From a virus (Duplodnaviria > Heunggongvirae > Uroviricota > Caudoviricetes), in the IMG/VR virus record IMGVR_UViG_3300045988_018086, positions 1 to 41,184 of that record: a stretch of DNA of 41,184 nucleotides, one strand, 5' to 3'. Below, piece by piece: positions 1 to 6,861 of the stretch; position 1 is the first letter of the stretch; each line of letters starts with the position of its first letter. The notes under the pieces were generated by a model, which was not told the DNA's origin, ran no database searches, and was given only the letters and a program-made list of their open reading frames with translations. Made by a program: the position numbers and the translations under genes.

Positions 1-1910
1 CCCGCCCCAACGGCAGCAGCAGCGGCTACAGGTGCCAGGAACGGACCAACAACAGGGATAGCGGCCGTTGACTTATACGCTTCAATAGCTGCGGTGTACG
101 TGGCGATAGTGGCCTGTACGATAGCGAATGCCTTATACGCGCCAGAAGCCTCGCCCAACGCGGACCCGATATTTGAGGCCATGTTACCAAAGGCCGTTGC
201 CGTTGCCTCAGCACGCTTGGTGGCGTATTGCTCGTTGATGGCGTTAAGTGCCGCTTGATACTGTTCCTCTTTAATCAGACCCTGCTCGCGGTACTTATCA
301 GCTACCGCCAGTTTCTGCTGTTCCTGGATATCGAGAAGCTCAAGCTCAGTGGCATTCTGGCCCATAATTTGAGCCATGAAGTCGTCGCCTTTCTGCTGCT
401 TTTCCTGGGCTTCTTTCTGACGTTTATCCAGTTCATCTTGCCGTTTTTGCCCTGCTTCAAGGACAATAGCCGTTTTTGCTTGCTCGTATTCTTTCAGAGA
501 CAACGCGCCCTGGCTGTAAAACTCTTTTGCTTTAGCCAGTTTCTGCTGTTCCTGGGCGTCAATAGCCTTTAACTCGTCGTTGTTCTGACGGGCCAAAGTG
601 TCGAGGTAATCTTGCGCCTGATTGCGCAATTGCTCCGCCTTCTTAGCGGCGGCTTTTGCCGCTTTATCGTCGGCGTTTCCGGTGCCGCCAGTTCCGCCCT
701 TTTTATTAACAAGGCTGGCTAAGTCAATTTCTTGCTTCTTGCGCTCGTCATACTGCTTGCGCTGTTCCTCAATTTCTTTCTTACGCTGCTTAGACCTGTC
801 GGTAATGGCCCGGGATTCCGCCGCTGCGCGTTTTATGCTGGCGGCGTATGCGGCGTCAGCCTCTGCGGTCAGGTTTTTAAATGTGAGCGCTGCCGTTTTG
901 CTCGGGTCAAACACATCAGCAAGGGTCTGACCTAACGCTACAGCGTAATCGTCAATGCGCTGGAACCACGCAATAACCTCATGGAACGTCTGCTGAATGT
1001 CAGGCAACCACTCACGGATAGCATCAGGTATAGCCCCCAGCGAGTCTGACATATCAACGGATTTGTCCTCGGTGTCGTATGCCAGGTCATTCAGGGCATC
1101 AGAAATAAACTTGAACGATTCATTGAACAGTGTCACCCAATCCTGGAGCGTGGCTGCTATCTCATTAGACGCTATGGCGTCGGTGAGTGCCGTGATAGCA
1201 TCTTCCGCTCTCGCGGCTTGCTCACCTACGGCGTCACCAAAACCGGATTGCGCTACCGCAAGAACAAGACCATCGAAGGAGTCGGCGAGGCTCGACAACT
1301 GGCCATCTAAGGTCTTCGAACGCGTCTCCATAGCTCCGGCGAAATCAGTGTTGCCGATGTTTAGCAGGTATTTCTGAATCTCTTCGGAGTTCTTCTTAAC
1401 GGTAGTCGTTACGCCGCGGAACGTGAACGAAACGGTATCTGCCTGTTGGGAAGACTTAATGCCGAACTCTTTCAGCCGCTCAAACTCAAAGGTACTGGCG
1501 TCAGCCACAGCCTCAATCATCTGATTAAGGTCTTTACCCATAGCCGCCGCGGTGTTGCCGTAGGAGATTAACGCCTCTTTGCTGGGATTCAGGCCGAGGG
1601 CTACAAGTTTAGTGAAACCCTCTACCGCCTGATTGAGGCCATACGGGGTTTCTTTTGCGAACTGTTGCAGGACGCTGAAAGCCTTAGCCGCGTTCTCGGC
1701 GCTTCCGGTCATTGTGATGAGGCCGGAATTCAGCTTATCGAAGTTGCGCTGAGAGTCCACCAGCGCACTGAACACCTGTTTGGCGGTTTCCAGACTGACA
1801 ATGGCAGCCGCGGCAGCACCTGCGGCTTTGGTAAGCCCGTTCAGTTGTGATGTGGTTTTATCGACGCCGGTCGAAGATACTCGTACTATCAAGCTAGCGG
1901 TATCAGCCAT
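1..1910 (-). CDS. Tail tape measure protein, N-terminal and central part; ORF is open at the window start
   Basis: ATG at 1910 preceded by GAAGG RBS; long minus-strand ORF with no stop down to position 1 (the + strand ORFs 228..1377 are its antisense); sits downstream of G/GT chaperones as expected for a siphovirus. Confidence 0.65.
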   Translation of the reverse strand, partial: MADTASLIVRVSSTGVDKTTSQLNGLTKAAGAAAAAIVSLETAKQVFSALVDSQRNFDKLNSGLITMTGSAENAAKAFSVLQQFAKETPYGLNQAVEGFTKLVALGLNPSKEALISYGNTAAAMGKDLNQMIEAVADASTFEFERLKEFGIKSSQQADTVSFTFRGVTTTVKKNSEEIQKYLLNIGNTDFAGAMETRSKTLDGQLSSLADSFDGLVLAVAQSGFGDAVGEQAARAEDAITALTDAIASNEIAATLQDWVTLFNESFKFISDALNDLAYDTEDKSVDMSDSLGAIPDAIREWLPDIQQTFHEVIAWFQRIDDYAVALGQTLADVFDPSKTAALTFKNLTAEADAAYAASIKRAAAESRAITDRSKQRKKEIEEQRKQYDERKKQEIDLASLVNKKGGTGGTGNADDKAAKAAAKKAEQLRNQAQDYLDTLARQNNDELKAIDAQEQQKLAKAKEFYSQGALSLKEYEQAKTAIVLEAGQKRQDELDKRQKEAQEKQQKGDDFMAQIMGQNATELELLDIQEQQKLAVADKYREQGLIKEEQYQAALNAINEQYATKRAEATATAFGNMASNIGSALGEASGAYKAFAIVQATIATYTAAIEAYKSTAAIPVVGPFLAPVAAAAAVGA

Positions 1911-2235
1911 GATTTCTACCTTCAAAGATTGCTTCTAAGCCCATGATAATGTCTATCTCGAACAGGCTAAGCTGTTTTTGCGTAACATCGAGATAGGCTT
2001 TCAGGTCTTGCCACGTAACGGATTCTCTTGCAAACAATACTACAGCGTCCTCGCGCACGTGTCGCGTAAACTTAATGTCGCAATACGTCTCAAAGGTGGA
2101 TATAAAAAGGGGCGGGCATTCTGGCCCACCCCGTCGCGCTGCACGTTTTTTCTTATCGATTACACCCATCGCGATAAGCGCCTGTTCGTGTCCGTCAGCT
2201 ATAGAATCAAACTCTCTGATTTTATGCTTATCCAC
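1903..2235 (-). CDS. Tail assembly chaperone, T segment of the G/GT pair (likely expressed by -1 frameshift from the upstream G ORF)
   Basis: ORF lies in the -1 frame relative to 2268..2684 and stays open across that gene's stop codon; position between chaperone G and tape measure. Confidence 0.45.
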   Translation of the reverse strand: MDKHKIREFDSIADGHEQALIAMGVIDKKKRAARRGGPECPPLFISTFETYCDIKFTRHVREDAVVLFARESVTWQDLKAYLDVTQKQLSLFEIDIIMGLEAIFEGRNHG

Positions 2236-2267
2236 AAACTCATAGGTGGCGAACCTGTACAGCGCGT

Positions 2268-2684
2268 CTACTTTTCCTGTAATGCTTTGCGCTCAGCGTT
2301 ATGGAACGCTGCTACCTGTGTGCCTAATGCCTTGAACTGGTCCAGCAATTTGTTAAATGCTTCTTTAGAGAAAGGCTCATCAAAGCTCCAGCCGTTTACG
2401 ACTTCTGCCGCGAGTTGCCGGTTGAGGTCTTCCGCCAGTTCGTTAATAGCCAGGTTATATTCAGTATAGTCGCCGGATTCTTTGGCGGCTTTTTCCAGTT
2501 CTTCGAAACGCGCCAACCCGCGACGGTACGCAATAATGAAAGCACGCCCCGCTTTAACGGCGACATCCGCATCGGGACTTACAACGTTAAGCCATTCACC
2601 GGAGTCTTCGCCGTTTGGCAGCAGAATGGGCATCTTCTTGCCTACCAGTGCTTTCTCTTCGAAATAAAAATCAGAAAGTTTCAT
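2268..2684 (-). CDS. Tail assembly chaperone (gpG-like)
   Basis: 138-aa acidic protein immediately upstream of the frameshift segment and tape measure gene; synteny. Confidence 0.55.
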   Translation of the reverse strand: MKLSDFYFEEKALVGKKMPILLPNGEDSGEWLNVVSPDADVAVKAGRAFIIAYRRGLARFEELEKAAKESGDYTEYNLAINELAEDLNRQLAAEVVNGWSFDEPFSKEAFNKLLDQFKALGTQVAAFHNAERKALQEK

Positions 2685-2792
2685 TCTTTAATCCTTTGGT
2701 TAAGAGGTTACAGGTTAACGATAAATGCGCCAGACGGGAACCACCCGCTTTTCGTGTGCGACACTAGGCGCAAACTTATTCTATCACATTAC

Positions 2793-2821
2793 TTGCACAC
2801 CCCAATATAATAGGGTACTAT
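2793..2821 (+). promoter_or_regulatory. Sigma70-like promoter TTGCAC-N17-TACTAT overlapping an AATAG-N4-CTATT inverted repeat
   Basis: Hexamers with 17-nt spacing ~15 nt upstream of the 2837 ORF; 30-nt block nearly identical to the one at 13157..13185. Confidence 0.5.
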
Positions 2822-2836
2822 TCACTTACACCAACA

Positions 2837-3043
2837 ATGAAGGGGTTTAAAATGTCAAGTTTACCAGTTTCCTTAATTCTGTTTGCACTGCTCGCTTATT
2901 TCGCGCCTTTCCTGGTTGCGTACTTCCGTAACCATAAAGCGAAGTTAGCGATATTCATGGCTAATCTGTTTCTTGGTTGGGTTCTGCTGCCGTGGGTATT
3001 TATCTTAATCTGGGCGTGCAACTCGAATGTCAAAGAGAAGTGA
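2837..3043 (+). CDS. Small membrane protein, superinfection-immunity (Imm)-like; true start may be the ATG at 2852
   Basis: Two hydrophobic segments with LFLGW..LPW..LIWA motif typical of small phage immunity proteins; GAAGGGG RBS before second ATG. Confidence 0.5.
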   Translation: MKGFKMSSLPVSLILFALLAYFAPFLVAYFRNHKAKLAIFMANLFLGWVLLPWVFILIWACNSNVKEK

Positions 3044-3080
3044 GCTAGTATAGGACAAATCCTAAACACGAGGAATAAGC

Positions 3081-4211
3081 ATGGCCAGGAAGAAAATAAC
3101 CGACGAACAGTTACAGGAAGAATTGAACGCCGGTATGAAGAATATCGACATCGCCCGTAAATACGGCATCTCCGACCGCGTTATTCGTATCCGTAAAGCG
3201 AAGCTGGCTAAGAAAGGTGTAGGCCACGGGCGTGACGTTAGTTACCTTGTACCGGACGGCTACAAGATTAAAGGAACGTCATCACTGGTGGATGAGTTTG
3301 GCAACACCAAGTTGCAATGGGTTAAGACCGACACCGATGCCGAACGTCAGGTTGAATTGATGAAAGCCGTAATCGAAGGCATGAAGTCGGAGATTACACC
3401 AGTTGCACCTGTTAAAGCCGTTCGCGCCAAACGAGACGACAAGCTACTCAACCTTTACACTGTGTCTGATTTCCATCTCGGTATGCTGGCCTGGGCTGAC
3501 GAGAGCGGCGACGACTGGGACATGAAGATTGCGGAAGACCTGTTCTCCCGCTGGTTCGACGCAGCGTTCCAGAAAGCACCGGATGCCGGAACAGGAGTTA
3601 TTAATCTGCTGGGCGACCTTGCGCATTTCGATAGTCTGGACGCCGTTACACCTGCCAGTGGTCATGTTCTTGACGCTGACACCCGCTATCAGAAACTTGT
3701 ACGCTACATGATTCGTATGGTCCGCCGTGTCATTGATATGGCTCTCGTTAAACATAAAAATGTTCGCTTGCTTATCGTGCAAGGTAACCACGACGAAAGC
3801 GGAATGATTTGGTTAGCTGAGATGTTTAGTACGCTGTACGACAATGAGCCGCGTGTGCTCGTCGATACGTCGCCGGATGTTTACAAGATGGTGCAACACG
3901 GCAAAACGACGCTGTTCTTCCATCATGGGCATAAAGCACGATTCGACGCTATCGAACCGGTTATGATCGCCAAGTTCCGCAAAGCGTTCGGCGAGAGTGT
4001 TTACAGCTACGCCCACGTGGGTCACCTGCACCACCAAAAGATTGTAGAAAGCCGTAACATGATTGTTGAGCAACACCGCACTCTCGCGGCTAAAGATGCA
4101 TATGCCTCCCGCGGTGGGTGGATGTCGGGCCGCAGTGCAAACGTAATTACTTATAGCGCCGAATATGGCGAGGTCGCACGTTTAACTATTTCACCGGAGA
4201 TGCTTGGATGA
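3081..4211 (+). CDS. HTH domain fused to SbcD/Mre11-family metallophosphoesterase (putative nuclease)
   Basis: Motifs SDFHLG, GDLAHFD, QGNHDE, HHGH, GHLH of calcineurin-like phosphoesterases; N-terminal ~60 aa HTH-like. Confidence 0.65.
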   Translation: MARKKITDEQLQEELNAGMKNIDIARKYGISDRVIRIRKAKLAKKGVGHGRDVSYLVPDGYKIKGTSSLVDEFGNTKLQWVKTDTDAERQVELMKAVIEGMKSEITPVAPVKAVRAKRDDKLLNLYTVSDFHLGMLAWADESGDDWDMKIAEDLFSRWFDAAFQKAPDAGTGVINLLGDLAHFDSLDAVTPASGHVLDADTRYQKLVRYMIRMVRRVIDMALVKHKNVRLLIVQGNHDESGMIWLAEMFSTLYDNEPRVLVDTSPDVYKMVQHGKTTLFFHHGHKARFDAIEPVMIAKFRKAFGESVYSYAHVGHLHHQKIVESRNMIVEQHRTLAAKDAYASRGGWMSGRSANVITYSAEYGEVARLTISPEMLG

Positions 4212-4693
4212 AAGATATTGTGATTTTCGATTTAGACGGGACATTGGCAGATGGTACTCATCGTTTACACCTGCTGCCGAAAGATAACTACGGCGAAACC
4301 TGGGCGTGGAAACCATTTAACATGGCGTGCAAAGACGATGCACCCATTAAAGATAACATCGAACTGTGTAACGCCCTTAATCGTCGCTATGCCGTTATTA
4401 TCTTAACAGGCCGTAGTGATGACGCGGAAAAAGAAACCAGAATGTGGTTGCAGCGCCACCGCGTCGAATTTTATCAGTTAATCATGCGCAGCAAACACGA
4501 CAACAGAAAAGACATCGTAATTAAAGAAGAGGTGTTGCGTGCTATTGGGCCGGAGAGAATCTTGTGTGCATTCGACGACTCTCCAGCGGTAATAAAGCAT
4601 TTCCGCGAACTCGGCATAACCACTCACGCAGTTACTGAATACGACTGTAACGGGAACTCTACACACTTAAAACCACATGGGAGTGATAAATAA
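4208..4693 (+). CDS. HAD-family phosphatase resembling the 3'-phosphatase domain of T4 polynucleotide kinase-phosphatase
   Basis: VIFDLDGTLA (DxDGT) nucleophile motif, TGRSD, KDIVIKEE, AFDDSP blocks in the same order as the T4 Pnkp phosphatase domain as I recall it. Confidence 0.65.
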   Translation: MKDIVIFDLDGTLADGTHRLHLLPKDNYGETWAWKPFNMACKDDAPIKDNIELCNALNRRYAVIILTGRSDDAEKETRMWLQRHRVEFYQLIMRSKHDNRKDIVIKEEVLRAIGPERILCAFDDSPAVIKHFRELGITTHAVTEYDCNGNSTHLKPHGSDK

Positions 4694-5247
4694 TGGCTAA
4701 GGTAATTATTCTTAATGGCCCTGCGGGCTGCGGGAAAGACACACTTGCTAGGGCGCTGGTAGAAATGGGCTTTGCGAAGGGTGTCGCCAGTTTCAAGAAT
4801 CCGATGTTCAATATTGCTATGGCTGCGTTAGGCCAGGATGCTTACCGCGAGTTTCTCGACGGCTACGACGACCGGGCGCGGAAAGAAAAGCCAGAGGGTT
4901 TCCTTAACGGGTTGTCTCGGCGTCAGTTCATGATTGCCATTTCCGAGCAATTCATTAAACCGGTATTCGGTGATGATTATTTCGGTAAGTATCTTGCCGG
5001 AAACTTGCCCGACGGCGACGAAGTTTTTGTGGTGTCTGATGGCGGGTTCGCCAGCGAAGTAGCCCCTATCGTTGCCGCGGGGCATGATGTGAGAATCGTC
5101 CGCTTGCACAGAGACGGCCATACGTTTGAAGGGGACAGCCGCGGTTACCTGTACGATATTGATGGTGTAAAAGATTATGACACCTACATCATACCGGGTT
5201 ACGTTAAATCGAACGCTATAGGCATTGCTTTAAGATTAGGCTTGTAA
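4693..5247 (+). CDS. P-loop kinase, T4 gp1-like deoxynucleoside monophosphate kinase family
   Basis: Walker A GPAGCGKDT (GKDT signature); ATGA start/stop overlap with upstream gene. Confidence 0.6.
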   Translation: MAKVIILNGPAGCGKDTLARALVEMGFAKGVASFKNPMFNIAMAALGQDAYREFLDGYDDRARKEKPEGFLNGLSRRQFMIAISEQFIKPVFGDDYFGKYLAGNLPDGDEVFVVSDGGFASEVAPIVAAGHDVRIVRLHRDGHTFEGDSRGYLYDIDGVKDYDTYIIPGYVKSNAIGIALRLGL

Positions 5248-5252
5248 GAAAA

Positions 5253-5270
5253 AGGCCCCAAACGGGGCCT
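5253..5270. terminator. Bidirectional intrinsic terminator hairpin (AGGCCCC-AAAC-GGGGCCT) with flanking T/A runs
   Basis: Perfect 7-bp GC stem, U-run on both strands; lies between convergent genes (kinase and major tail). Confidence 0.6.
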
Positions 5271-5275
5271 TAGTT

Positions 5276-6442
5276 TTATGCGTATGTGATACGCTGAATA
5301 ACAATAGACGACTGGTACTGGTTGCCAGTAGCCTGGCCTTCAATAGACTGAGTGATTGACTCAGGTCCTCCAATCTCAGGTGTAACCGCCGTAAGTTCTG
5401 CACGTTTCAAACTGAAAGACATAGCCCCGTTTACCCCAGCCAGAATAGAGTTAATCTCCACCTGCTGCTCGTTGATAAACTTCTGAATCATCGCCATGTC
5501 GTACAGCTTACCGGAGATGGAGAAGGTGTTAGCTGCTCGGCTACGCTCCACAAACGCTACGTTAGTGTTGCCGAGTTCGAACTGTGCGGACGCGCTGTTG
5601 TCGTTGGTGATGGTCAGGCTGTCGCAACGCAACGGCGTAGAACCGTCGAACACAGAAACATCGACCGAGGAGAATGGCTCGTCACCAAACGTAACAGAGG
5701 AGAAATCAGAACCAGACGGCTGCGTGGTGAGAATCTCCTGACTGCGACCGATGAACGGGAAGCTGCCAGTTACCATAGCGTTAACAGCCTGTTCGATGGT
5801 AAAACCAGAAACTTCCACGCCTTTGGTTAGTGTGTACGCGTCAGTCCCGCCGCACTGGCCTTTGTACCAGGTGAGAATAGAGAACGTCTTGCACTGGCTT
5901 CCCGTTTCCAGTTTATCCCCTGTCTTAGCGGCGGTAGTTACTGTCTCTGTGGTCAGGGTATGCTGGATACCCGCCCCGGTCACTACCAGCGCCTCTACTG
6001 CAGTTACGATAAACGGTTTTGCGTTGTCACCGGTTAAGTCGGTAAACGCAATCAGGTCGCCCACTTCAACGCCGTCAGAAATAAAGCTACCTTCGGCACG
6101 GGTAAAGGTCTTGCCTGCAGGCGCGACGGTAATTGATAGCCCGGTCAGAGAACTACCGGATTGCCATGTAGAGCCTAAAGCTCCCGCCAGCCAGTCGTCC
6201 TGGCTTTTCGAGCTAAGCTCAATAGCGTATTCTCCGCTAACCTGCTTGTTACCGGTGCGGATTGACGTAGTTTCACGGCTGCCGTCCAGTTCGTTGGAGG
6301 TCAGCGTGTCGCGGGTAATGGCAGGAACGCCACCTGTGTTACGCAATGGCGACCAGACCGGGTTAGTCGGTGTTACGCCAGGGGTAGTTTCTGCCACATA
6401 GAATTGCGCAGTATTCGCGCCCTTAAAAGGAGTTGTAGCCAT
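5276..6442 (-). CDS. Major tail protein (likely start ATG at 6442; track start 6448 is GTG)
   Basis: Position upstream of G/GT chaperones; AGAGG RBS before ATG; followed by terminator. Confidence 0.55.
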   Translation of the reverse strand: MATTPFKGANTAQFYVAETTPGVTPTNPVWSPLRNTGGVPAITRDTLTSNELDGSRETTSIRTGNKQVSGEYAIELSSKSQDDWLAGALGSTWQSGSSLTGLSITVAPAGKTFTRAEGSFISDGVEVGDLIAFTDLTGDNAKPFIVTAVEALVVTGAGIQHTLTTETVTTAAKTGDKLETGSQCKTFSILTWYKGQCGGTDAYTLTKGVEVSGFTIEQAVNAMVTGSFPFIGRSQEILTTQPSGSDFSSVTFGDEPFSSVDVSVFDGSTPLRCDSLTITNDNSASAQFELGNTNVAFVERSRAANTFSISGKLYDMAMIQKFINEQQVEINSILAGVNGAMSFSLKRAELTAVTPEIGGPESITQSIEGQATGNQYQSSIVIQRITYA

Positions 6443-6444
6443 AT

Positions 6445-6861
6445 TCACAGCCTCTTGGTGAATGCAATAAAGTTAATTGACAATGGTCGTTTGGCCCATC
6501 CGTTTTCTACAATCAGCGGCCCCAGGCTAACCGATTGAACCTCGGCGCAGATGTCGTTACGAGAAAATGACTTACCTGCTTTGAATGCCGTGTTAAGTAA
6601 GTCTGCCATTTTATTGATTGGCGCGCTACCTTTCACCGATGCGTAGTTAATGTCGACCTGATAAACACCCGCGCGTTGTTCCGTGAAGAACAAATCTGCT
6701 TGCTCGGTATCCGCCAGTAACATGTAACTTGCCAGATATGGCGTATCGGTTGACGTCGGCGCGTCGATGTTTTCAAGCGCGACCTTGATGCCGTTGGCGG
6801 TTCCGAAGGCTACCAGCGGAACATCGAACGCTTTTGTTAAGTCCTCAAAGTAGCCCATCAT
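6445..6861 (-). CDS. Tail terminator / tail completion protein
   Basis: Synteny between neck proteins and major tail protein; overlapping start/stop coupling. Confidence 0.4.
   Translation of the reverse strand: MMGYFEDLTKAFDVPLVAFGTANGIKVALENIDAPTSTDTPYLASYMLLADTEQADLFFTEQRAGVYQVDINYASVKGSAPINKMADLLNTAFKAGKSFSRNDICAEVQSVSLGPLIVENGWAKRPLSINFIAFTKRL

What the first reader, a model, noticed from the sequence alone, without database searches (positions are those of the whole stretch)
2793..5270. Plus-strand accessory cassette inside the tail gene cluster: Imm-like membrane protein, HTH-SbcD nuclease, Pnkp-type phosphatase and dNMP-kinase-like protein
Four genes on the opposite strand to the surrounding tail genes are bracketed by an operator-containing promoter and a bidirectional terminator. 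The phosphatase matches the T4 Pnkp 3'-phosphatase domain block for block, the kinase has the GKDT P-loop, and the 376-aa protein has all Mre11/SbcD metallophosphoesterase motifs behind an N-terminal HTH. An end-healing enzyme set next to a nuclease suggests nucleic-acid end processing or repair, possibly countering host nucleases that cut tRNA or DNA. The small membrane protein resembles superinfection immunity proteins.
Basis: partly seen in the sequence, partly recalled or inferred. Interest (0 to 1): 0.6.

Follow-up and report, generated by a model that had tools for sequence, protein, structure and literature searches.

The report
Nucleotide-metabolism genes within phage tail cluster
A known K1G-type coliphage carries, on the opposite strand inside its tail genes, a small membrane 'immunity' gene plus a nuclease-like enzyme, a phosphatase and a nucleotide kinase that most likely supply DNA building blocks rather than repair cut RNA; the arrangement is already annotated in many phages and is ordinary.

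The parts
2783..2811 (+). Sigma-70-like promoter candidate (ATCACA-17-TATAAT) upstream of the cassette
   Evidence: Consensus scan, 10 of 12 matches. The -10 TATAAT is conserved in Kagunavirus relatives. No inverted repeat or operator was found in 2685-2860. Function is not shown.
2852..3043 (+). Imm-type small membrane protein (63 aa, two hydrophobic helices); the mechanical ORF starts at 2837
   Evidence: PF14373 9.3e-13, above cutoff; phrog_1039 4.7e-23. The start at 2852 matches the K1G annotation and follows AAGGGG. In K1H-like phages and Jerseyvirus T102 it is replaced by an unrelated 109-aa signal-peptide protein.
3051..3064 (.). Short palindrome TAGGA-CAAA-TCCTA just upstream of the MPE ribosome-binding site
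   Evidence: Conserved in all Kagunavirus loci aligned, whichever first gene they carry. Its role is unknown.
3081..4211 (+). 376-aa HTH-fused, stand-alone nuclease-type binuclear metallophosphoesterase (HTH about residues 1-45; beta-hairpin and helix 61-104; MPE core 119-376)
4208..4693 (+). 161-aa HAD (DxDxT) phosphatase of the Pnkp/Dmp family; no kinase domain
   Evidence: Pfam HAD_PNKP 6.7e-20. hhalign to T4 Pnkp 96.5%. D8, D10, T67, K106 and D124 correspond to T4 D165, D167, S211, K258 and D278. It shares phrog_415 with T5 Dmp and shares Dmp's cap insert.
4693..5247 (+). 184-aa P-loop kinase of the T4 gp1 / T5 Dnk dNMP-kinase family
5252..5271 (.). Bidirectional intrinsic-terminator-like hairpin between the convergent kinase and tail tube genes
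   Evidence: 8-bp stem with 6 GC pairs and T-rich tails on both strands. The stem is conserved and the loop varies (AAAC, GAAA, GGAA) in relatives.
1903..2684 (-). Flank: tail assembly chaperone and its frameshift extension
   Evidence: PF08748 and PF23812; phrog_15027. K1G annotates a joined CDS.
5276..6448 (-). Flank: tail tube protein
   Evidence: PF18906 5.4e-41.

Best explanation
The region is a mosaic, opposite-strand insert in the tail gene cluster of a virulent Kagunavirus. It contains two functionally separate things.

(1) A small two-helix Imm-type inner-membrane protein. This is a swappable gene, probably for superinfection exclusion.

(2) A translationally coupled trio for DNA and nucleotide metabolism:
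- An HTH-tethered, Mre11/SbcD/DP1-like metallophosphoesterase nuclease digests DNA. The target is host DNA or phage replication and recombination intermediates.
- A Pnkp/Dmp-family HAD phosphatase removes phosphates that the pathway cannot use. These are 3'-phosphates on DNA ends or nucleotides.
- A gp1/Dnk-family kinase converts 5'-dNMPs to dNDPs for phage DNA synthesis.

What is shown here: the gene structure, the family and fold assignments, the conserved catalytic residues, the linkage across three phage lineages, and the absence of a ligase. What is inferred: the substrates, the order of the steps, and the source of the DNA.
For: - Kinase. It is in the same PHROG as both characterised dNMP kinases. 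The best fold match is T4 gp1. T5 Dnk matches the profile beyond the P-loop.
- Kinase distribution. It is widespread in virulent phages among DNA-metabolism genes and often occurs without the phosphatase. Examples are a site near ribonucleotide reductase in V18, a site next to an exonuclease in ECBP2, and ICP1.
- T5 parallel. T5 carries members of the same two families, Dmp and Dnk, for nucleotide turnover.
- MPE. The fold is closest to 3'-5' exonucleases and nucleases. T4 gp46/47, a remote relative, is annotated as needed for recombination and host-DNA degradation.
- Trio linkage. The trio appears in the same order on the same strand in Kagunavirus, Webervirus and T7-like ECBP5. It is present in 41 of 80 HAD-anchored viral loci, and 63 of 80 have HAD with the kinase downstream.
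- Position. It sits among replication and recombination genes, after endonuclease VII in ECBP5 and after a methylase in Drexlerviridae.
- Literature. A pangenome study of 522 Drexlerviridae reports the same exonuclease-PNK-dNMP kinase neighbourhood and proposes nucleotide supply (PMC13164509).
- Coupling. Stop and start codons overlap, which suggests co-expression.
- Imm independence. The Imm gene is exchanged without touching the MPE.
Against: - No biochemical or genetic data exist for any of the four proteins.
- If the phosphatase were a 5'-dNMPase like T5 Dmp, co-expressing it with a dNMP kinase would be a futile cycle.
- By direct profile comparison the phosphatase is nearer T4 Pnkp (96.5%) than Dmp (21%). 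T4 Pnkp acts on polynucleotide ends.
- ECBP5 puts a DNA ligase directly after the trio, and Campylobacter phages put one directly before the MPE. This fits break repair at least as well.
- The MPE's margin over non-nuclease MPE folds is small (15.8 against 13.9).
- The MPE persists where the phosphatase and kinase are absent, so it may not work with them at all.
- It is not known whether Kagunaviruses degrade host DNA.
Confidence: 0.5

Rival explanations
1. DNA end-healing and repair. The HAD enzyme removes 3'-phosphates from nicked or broken phage DNA. The MPE trims damaged ends. The kinase, despite its family, phosphorylates 5'-OH DNA ends. Host LigA, or a phage ligase in ECBP5, then seals. 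The module repairs damage from host nucleases or from replication.
For: - The phosphatase is a Pnkp-type HAD with all catalytic residues.
- An ATP-dependent DNA ligase lies directly downstream of the trio in ECBP5 and directly upstream of the MPE homologue in Campylobacter phage F368.
- The MPE fold is Mre11/SbcD-like.
- The three genes are tightly coupled.
Against: - The kinase belongs to the dNMP-kinase family by PHROG, fold and shared residues.
- This phage has no detectable ligase.
- The pair is dispensable in sister Jerseyviruses.
- The phosphatase shares a cap insert and a PHROG with the mononucleotide phosphatase T5 Dmp.
Confidence: 0.2
2. Unrelated neighbours. The HTH-MPE has its own core role, such as replication or recombination nuclease, DNA processing or regulation. 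The phosphatase-kinase pair is an independent nucleotide-pool add-on that happens to land downstream of it. There is no trio pathway.
For: - The MPE stands alone in Warwickvirus, Dhillonvirus, Vibrio and Flavobacterium phages, and in Jerseyviruses, where an Ant-like gene replaces the pair.
- The MPE is persistent in 508 of 522 Drexlerviridae, while the kinases are variable.
- In 22 of 80 loci, HAD and the kinase occur without an MPE within 6 kb.
- The MPE occurs at 80% identity or more in 292 records, against 57 for HAD and 53 for the kinase.
Against: - The same three-gene order has been kept in three distinct phage taxa, with overlapping or closely spaced genes.
- In phiR8-01 a different MPE family (phrog_221) sits beside the same kinase family. 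This hints at a functional rather than a historical link.
Confidence: 0.2
3. tRNA or RNA repair that counters anticodon nucleases, as with T4 Pnkp plus Rnl1.
For: - The phosphatase is homologous to the T4 Pnkp phosphatase domain, which heals RNA 2',3'-cyclic phosphate ends.
- Bacterial Pnkp uses an MPE-type phosphatase (PMC3675462, listed).
Against: - There is no RNA ligase in the window.
- The kinase is not of a polynucleotide kinase family.
- None of the proteins matches a defence or anti-defence model in PADLOC. That library does not cover anti-defence genes well.
Confidence: 0.03

Closest known systems
T4 gp1 and T5 Dnk deoxynucleoside monophosphate kinases
   Different: The window kinase is shorter (184 aa against 241 and 250 aa) and lacks their roughly 50-residue insert. 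Identity is only 22-25%. Substrate range is untested.
T4 polynucleotide kinase-phosphatase (Pnkp, pseT), C-terminal phosphatase domain
   Same: DxDxT acylphosphatase fold family. All essential residues are conserved, and the RKD-x-x-KEE block is shared.
   Different: The window protein is a stand-alone phosphatase with no fused Pnkp-type kinase. It has an extra cap insert of about 16 residues that T4 lacks. No RNA ligase partner is present.
T5 Dmp deoxynucleoside-5'-monophosphatase
   Same: Same PHROG (415). The cap insert is shared in position and in a few residues. T5 also pairs it, at genome level, with a phrog_139 kinase.
   Different: Direct similarity is weak (hhalign 21%). Dmp is not hit by Pfam HAD_PNKP. 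Dmp has a different large insert between motifs II and III. In T5 the two genes are far apart and are annotated in different temporal classes.
Mre11/SbcD nucleases (including T4 gp47) and the archaeal PolD DP1 exonuclease
   Different: No capping domain after the core. No Rad50/SbcC/gp46 partner. An N-terminal HTH is present instead. The PHROG differs (704 against 100). Pfam scores fall below cutoff.
Drexlerviridae 'DNA repair exonuclease - PNK - dNMP kinase' neighbourhood upstream of the lysis genes
   Same: Homologous three genes in the same order. Described in PMC13164509, which interprets them as nucleotide supply.
   Different: In the window the trio lies on the opposite strand inside the tail cluster, is preceded by an Imm gene, and has its own promoter-like site and terminator.
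T4 Imm superinfection immunity protein family (PF14373)
   Same: Pfam match above cutoff. A small protein with two hydrophobic helices.
   Different: 63 aa, and only the Pfam core of about 40 residues matches. The exclusion function is untested. In sister phages an unrelated secreted protein replaces it.

Membership tests
gp1/Dnk-type dNMP kinase | P-loop of the form GxxxxGKD(T) | tested here: met
   The window has GPAGCGKDT. T4 gp1 and T5 Dnk have SGKDT.
gp1/Dnk-type dNMP kinase | Family-level sequence membership together with the characterised enzymes | tested here: met
   phrog_139: window 3.8e-46, T4 gp1 1.8e-65, T5 Dnk 1.4e-51. hhalign to T5 Dnk 96.7%.
gp1/Dnk-type dNMP kinase | Fold closest to T4 gp1 rather than to polynucleotide kinases | tested here: met
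gp1/Dnk-type dNMP kinase | The helical insert of about 50 residues present in gp1 and Dnk | tested here: not met
   Absent from the window kinase and its close family in the alignment.
gp1/Dnk-type dNMP kinase | Phosphorylation of dNMPs to dNDPs | not testable with these tools
   Needs an enzyme assay.
T4-type Pnkp end-healing enzyme | DxDxT phosphatase with the essential residues D165, D167, S211, K258 and D278 | tested here: met
   D8, D10, T67, K106 and D124 align with them. The residue list comes from PMC3592404. Pfam HAD_PNKP scores above cutoff.
T4-type Pnkp end-healing enzyme | Pnkp-type polynucleotide 5'-kinase domain, fused or adjacent | tested here: not met
   The 161-aa protein has no kinase domain. 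The adjacent kinase is phrog_139, not the Pnkp-kinase PHROGs 505, 2071 or 8238. The hhalign match to T4 Pnkp covers only the P-loop.
T4-type Pnkp end-healing enzyme | A partner ligase to seal the healed ends | tested here: not met
   tblastn with two ATP-dependent DNA ligases, T4 RnlA and T4 57B gives E > 1. None is annotated in the part of K1G that I viewed. NAD-dependent ligases and RtcB were not queried.
T4-type Pnkp end-healing enzyme | Activity on polynucleotide 3'-phosphate or 2',3'-cyclic phosphate ends | not testable with these tools
   Needs an enzyme assay. T4 Pnkp itself also acts on 3'-dTMP.
T5 Dmp-type 5'-deoxynucleotidase | Sequence relationship to Dmp | tested here: inconclusive
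   Same PHROG 415 and a shared cap insert. But hhalign gives only 21%, and Dmp is not hit by Pfam HAD_PNKP.
Mre11/SbcD nuclease | Five metallophosphoesterase motifs (DxH, GD, GNH, H, GHxH) | tested here: met
   D130, H132, G178, D179, N236, H237, H282 and H317 are invariant in 102 sequences.
Mre11/SbcD nuclease | Nuclease-domain fold | tested here: met
Mre11/SbcD nuclease | Capping domain C-terminal to the nuclease core | tested here: not met
   The model ends with the MPE core at residue 376. Only 184-193 residues align to SbcD and Mre11 chains of 319-362 residues.
Mre11/SbcD nuclease | A Rad50/SbcC ATPase partner encoded nearby | tested here: not met
   T4 gp46 finds nothing in the window (E 4.8). 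None is annotated in the part of K1G that I viewed.
Mre11/SbcD nuclease | Curated family score (Pfam Metallophos or Metallophos_2) | tested here: not met
   18.3 against a cutoff of 21.5, and 20.8 against a cutoff of 27. T4 gp47 is in a different PHROG.
Imm_superinfect (PF14373) | Pfam score above gathering threshold, and a small two-helix membrane protein | tested here: met
   48.3 bits against a cutoff of 27.9. The translation shows two hydrophobic stretches.
Imm_superinfect (PF14373) | Blocks DNA entry of superinfecting phage | not testable with these tools
   Needs an infection assay.

The most novel reading that the evidence does not exclude
The trio could be a split, non-orthologous Pnkp-like end-healing system. 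The HAD 3'-phosphatase, the HTH-tethered MPE and a gp1-like kinase recruited to polynucleotide 5'-OH ends would together repair breaks that host defence nucleases make in phage DNA or in RNA. Sealing would fall to host LigA or RtcB, or to a phage ligase as in ECBP5. That would make it a widespread counter-defence module of Kagunavirus, Drexlerviridae and some T7-like phages.
Probability: 0.07. Interest if true: 0.7.

Novelty: already known. Interest (0 to 1): 0.22.

Why it matters
As it stands the finding matters little. Near-identical phages already carry these annotations, and the exonuclease-phosphatase-dNMP kinase neighbourhood has been described and read as nucleotide supply in Drexlerviridae.

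Two points have practical value:
- The widely propagated labels 'polynucleotide kinase' and '3'-phosphatase, 5'-polynucleotide kinase' for this 161-aa protein are wrong. It has no kinase domain, and its PHROG also holds the mononucleotide phosphatase T5 Dmp.
- The HTH-metallophosphoesterase is a very common core phage gene with no experimental characterisation. It occurs in 2,057 phage records and matches 4,634 cluster representatives. Knowing whether it degrades host DNA or processes phage DNA would fill a real gap for two large families of therapeutic coliphages and Klebsiella phages.

Tried and rejected
- Fused T5 A2-A1 idea. I tested whether the HTH-MPE is a fused version of T5 A2 (HTH) and A1 (host-DNA degradation). 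hhalign gave 5.8% for A1, covering only the GNHD motif, and 0.2% for A2. Rejected.
- Sequence searches of PDB. Single-sequence and 7-sequence profile searches gave nothing usable for the MPE or the kinase. Structure prediction was needed.
- Third homologue search. Run with the MPE alignment, it returned almost only 95-99% identical proteins. Diversity came from the representative library instead.
- The search for related loci. The HAD alignment worked.
- PADLOC. No hit for any of the four proteins.
- CRISPRi-ART paper. PTXU04 is not a Kagunavirus, so it offers no fitness data for these genes.
- K1B4 transcriptomics paper. The time course is too coarse to date the cassette. It only places the Imm gene with the methylase and polymerase genes rather than with the tail genes.
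- Operator search. No inverted repeat in the promoter region.
Full report
**What the window is.**
The region 2600-5400 is 99.7% identical to Escherichia phages vB_EcoS_fTaEco03 and UTI89UKE1, and 98.3% identical to K1G (Guernseyvirinae, Kagunavirus). 199 phage records match, but only 48 cover at least 80% of the region. Those records already name the four genes. The names used are superinfection immunity protein, metallophosphoesterase or DNA repair exonuclease, polynucleotide kinase/phosphatase, and deoxynucleotide kinase or ATP-binding protein.

**The observation.**
- Four plus-strand ORFs lie between the minus-strand tail assembly chaperone and the tail tube gene. They are at 2837/2852-3043, 3081-4211, 4208-4693 and 4693-5247. 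The chaperone is at 2268-2684, with its frameshift extension at 1903-2235. The tube gene is at 5276-6448.
- The Imm gene most likely starts at ATG 2852, behind AAGGGG, as annotated in K1G.
- The three enzyme genes are coupled. The MPE stop and HAD start overlap (ATGA), and the HAD stop shares a base with the kinase start.
- The hairpin at 5252-5271 scores as terminator-like on both strands. In relatives its stem is kept while its loop varies.
- A promoter-like site at 2783-2811 has a conserved -10. I found no inverted repeat that could serve as an operator in 2685-2860.
- A short palindrome at 3051-3064, just before the MPE ribosome-binding site, is conserved whichever first gene a phage carries.

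**The kinase.**
Pfam gives only sub-threshold P-loop hits. phrog_139 matches at 3.8e-46, and both characterised phage dNMP kinases belong to that PHROG: T4 gp1 at 1.8e-65 and T5 Dnk at 1.4e-51. The functions of those two proteins are taken from their genome records.
- A 76-sequence alignment gave a confident model with pLDDT 93.9.
- T5 Dnk matches the profile beyond the P-loop at 96.7%. GKD, R61, D116 and E122 are invariant across the family and both reference enzymes.
- The window kinase lacks the roughly 50-residue insert found in gp1 and Dnk.
- T4 Pnkp's kinase domain belongs to other PHROGs and matches only through the P-loop.

This is a dNMP-kinase-family protein, not a polynucleotide kinase.

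**The phosphatase.**
Several results place it in the Pnkp phosphatase family:
- Pfam HAD_PNKP scores 6.7e-20.
- PDB sequence hits are Pnkp1 and T4 Pnkp.
- hhalign to T4 Pnkp gives 96.5%.
- The essential T4 residues D165, D167, S211, K258 and D278 (PMC3592404) align with D8, D10, T67, K106 and D124.

Its best PHROG is 415, at 8e-67. That PHROG also holds, full-length, T5 Dmp, the deoxynucleoside-5'-monophosphatase (3.6e-57). The window family and Dmp also share an insert between motifs I and II that T4 Pnkp lacks. That is the cap region, which usually sets substrate choice in HAD enzymes (my own knowledge). Direct similarity to Dmp is weak (21%), and Dmp is not hit by the Pfam model.

So the family assignment is firm, but the substrate is not decided. 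It could be polynucleotide 3'-ends, 3'-nucleotides or 5'-nucleotides. T4 Pnkp itself also dephosphorylates 3'-dTMP. The protein has no kinase domain, so the common label '3'-phosphatase, 5'-polynucleotide kinase' is wrong.

**The 376-aa protein.**
- Pfam Metallophos hits fall below cutoff. phrog_704 matches at 7e-167.
- DxH, GD, GNH, H and GHxH are invariant in 102 sequences that are 33-53% identical to it.
- The model (pLDDT 93.1) shows a three-helix HTH at residues 8-44, a beta-hairpin plus helix at 61-104, and the phosphoesterase core at 119-376.
- The HTH resembles GerE/LuxR (E 0.009).
- T4 gp47, the true phage SbcD, matches at 80% over 185 columns and belongs to another PHROG.
- There is no capping domain and no Rad50/SbcC-like gene.
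- It is not related to T5 A1 or A2.
- The family is large, with 2,057 phage records and 4,634 representative clusters. In BFVD it matches many uncharacterised phage proteins.

**Comparative anatomy.**

| Lineage | Arrangement |
|---|---|
| Webervirus | MPE-HAD-kinase, after a methylase and before the holin |
| T7-like ECBP5 | Endonuclease VII, then MPE-HAD-kinase, then an ATP-dependent DNA ligase |
| Warwickvirus, Dhillonvirus, Vibrio and Flavobacterium phages | MPE alone |
| Campylobacter phage F368 | An HTH-less MPE homologue after a DNA ligase |
| Jerseyvirus T102 and phage SE126_1NRH | Same tail-cluster slot. T102 keeps an 88% identical MPE. The pair is replaced by a small ORF and an Ant-like protein (family checked in T102) |
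| phiR8-01 | The kinase beside a different MPE family, without a HAD gene |
| V18 | The kinase near ribonucleotide reductase, without a HAD gene |
| ICP1 and ECBP2 | The kinase without a HAD gene |

- In 80 HAD-anchored viral loci, 41 have the full trio and 22 have HAD plus a downstream kinase but no MPE within 6 kb. A further 16 have HAD alone and 1 has MPE-HAD only. These loci are not phylogenetically independent.
- Records with a copy at 80% identity or more number 292 for the MPE, 57 for HAD and 53 for the kinase. The pair therefore travels together and is far less fixed than the MPE.
- A pangenome study of 522 Drexlerviridae found the 'DNA repair exonuclease' persistent in 508 of 522. The 'polynucleotide kinase' and the dNMP kinase were its most frequent downstream neighbours, and the authors suggested nucleotide supply (PMC13164509).
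- The first gene of the slot alternates between the Imm type and an unrelated 109-aa protein with a signal-peptide-like N-terminus.

**Interpretation.**
The region is a mosaic: a swappable membrane-protein gene, a core HTH-nuclease gene, and an optional phosphatase plus dNMP-kinase pair. The best reading is DNA and nucleotide metabolism. In that reading the nuclease releases nucleotides, the phosphatase clears phosphates the pathway cannot use, and the kinase makes dNDPs. T5 offers a genome-level precedent, because it has members of the same two families, Dmp and Dnk.

The T4-style tRNA repair reading lacks a polynucleotide kinase and any ligase. A DNA end-repair reading stays alive for two reasons. 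The phosphatase is closer to T4 Pnkp than to Dmp, and ligases sit next to the module in two lineages. It is also possible that the MPE works independently of the pair. None of these readings can be settled without enzyme assays and deletions.

**Verdict.**
The mechanistic interpretation is only partly supported. The arrangement is already annotated and published, and interest is low. The main residual value is correcting a common misannotation and pointing to a very common, uncharacterised phage nuclease family.

Noticed in passing
window 2852-3043; L021, L022, L024, L028 and L014:3109-3438: The first gene of the slot alternates between the Imm-type protein and an unrelated 109-aa protein. The alternative belongs to phrog_14165 (unknown function) and starts MRKLVLALG..., which looks like a signal peptide. 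It occurs in K1H-like Kagunaviruses and in Jerseyvirus T102. The flanking sequence, including the region just upstream of the MPE, stays conserved.
   Followed up: partly
L014:4628-5642 (Salmonella phage T102); L015:4671-6196: In Jerseyvirus-type phages the phosphatase and kinase are replaced by a 76-aa ORF (phrog_2452) and an Ant-like anti-repressor or DNA-binding protein (phrog_63). In SE126_1NRH an HNH endonuclease is present as well.
   Followed up: partly
window 3051-3064: The palindrome TAGGA-CAAA-TCCTA sits immediately upstream of the MPE ribosome-binding site. It is conserved in all Kagunavirus loci aligned. It could be a binding site, perhaps for the MPE's own HTH, or an RNA hairpin.
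   Followed up: no
L007:3585-7261 (Escherichia phage ECBP5): In this T7-like phage the order is endonuclease VII, MPE, HAD, kinase, ATP-dependent DNA ligase. In Campylobacter phage F368 (L005:2654-4951) a DNA ligase directly precedes an HTH-less MPE homologue.
   Followed up: partly
L009:2426-4133 (Yersinia phage phiR8-01): A metallophosphoesterase of a different family (phrog_221, not detected by the phrog_704-type profile) sits beside the same dNMP-kinase family, between endonuclease VII and the RNA polymerase gene.
   Followed up: partly
window 4208-4693 and public records: Many GenBank records call this 161-aa phosphatase-only protein 'polynucleotide kinase' or '3'-phosphatase, 5'-polynucleotide kinase'. 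PHROG 415 carries that name although it contains T5 Dmp, a mononucleotide phosphatase.
   Followed up: yes
window 2852-3043 and 4208-4693: The Imm gene (GC 0.438) and the HAD gene (GC 0.451) have lower GC than the window (0.51), the MPE (0.509) and the kinase (0.505).
   Followed up: no
homologues P0016, P0022, P0025, P0255: Some near-identical MPE homologues are recorded as 406-411 aa rather than 376 aa. This probably reflects alternative upstream start calls.
   Followed up: no
L023 and L028: In two Kagunavirus contigs the kinase is 189 aa and is followed by further coding sequence instead of the terminator hairpin. The downstream edge of the slot therefore also varies.
   Followed up: no
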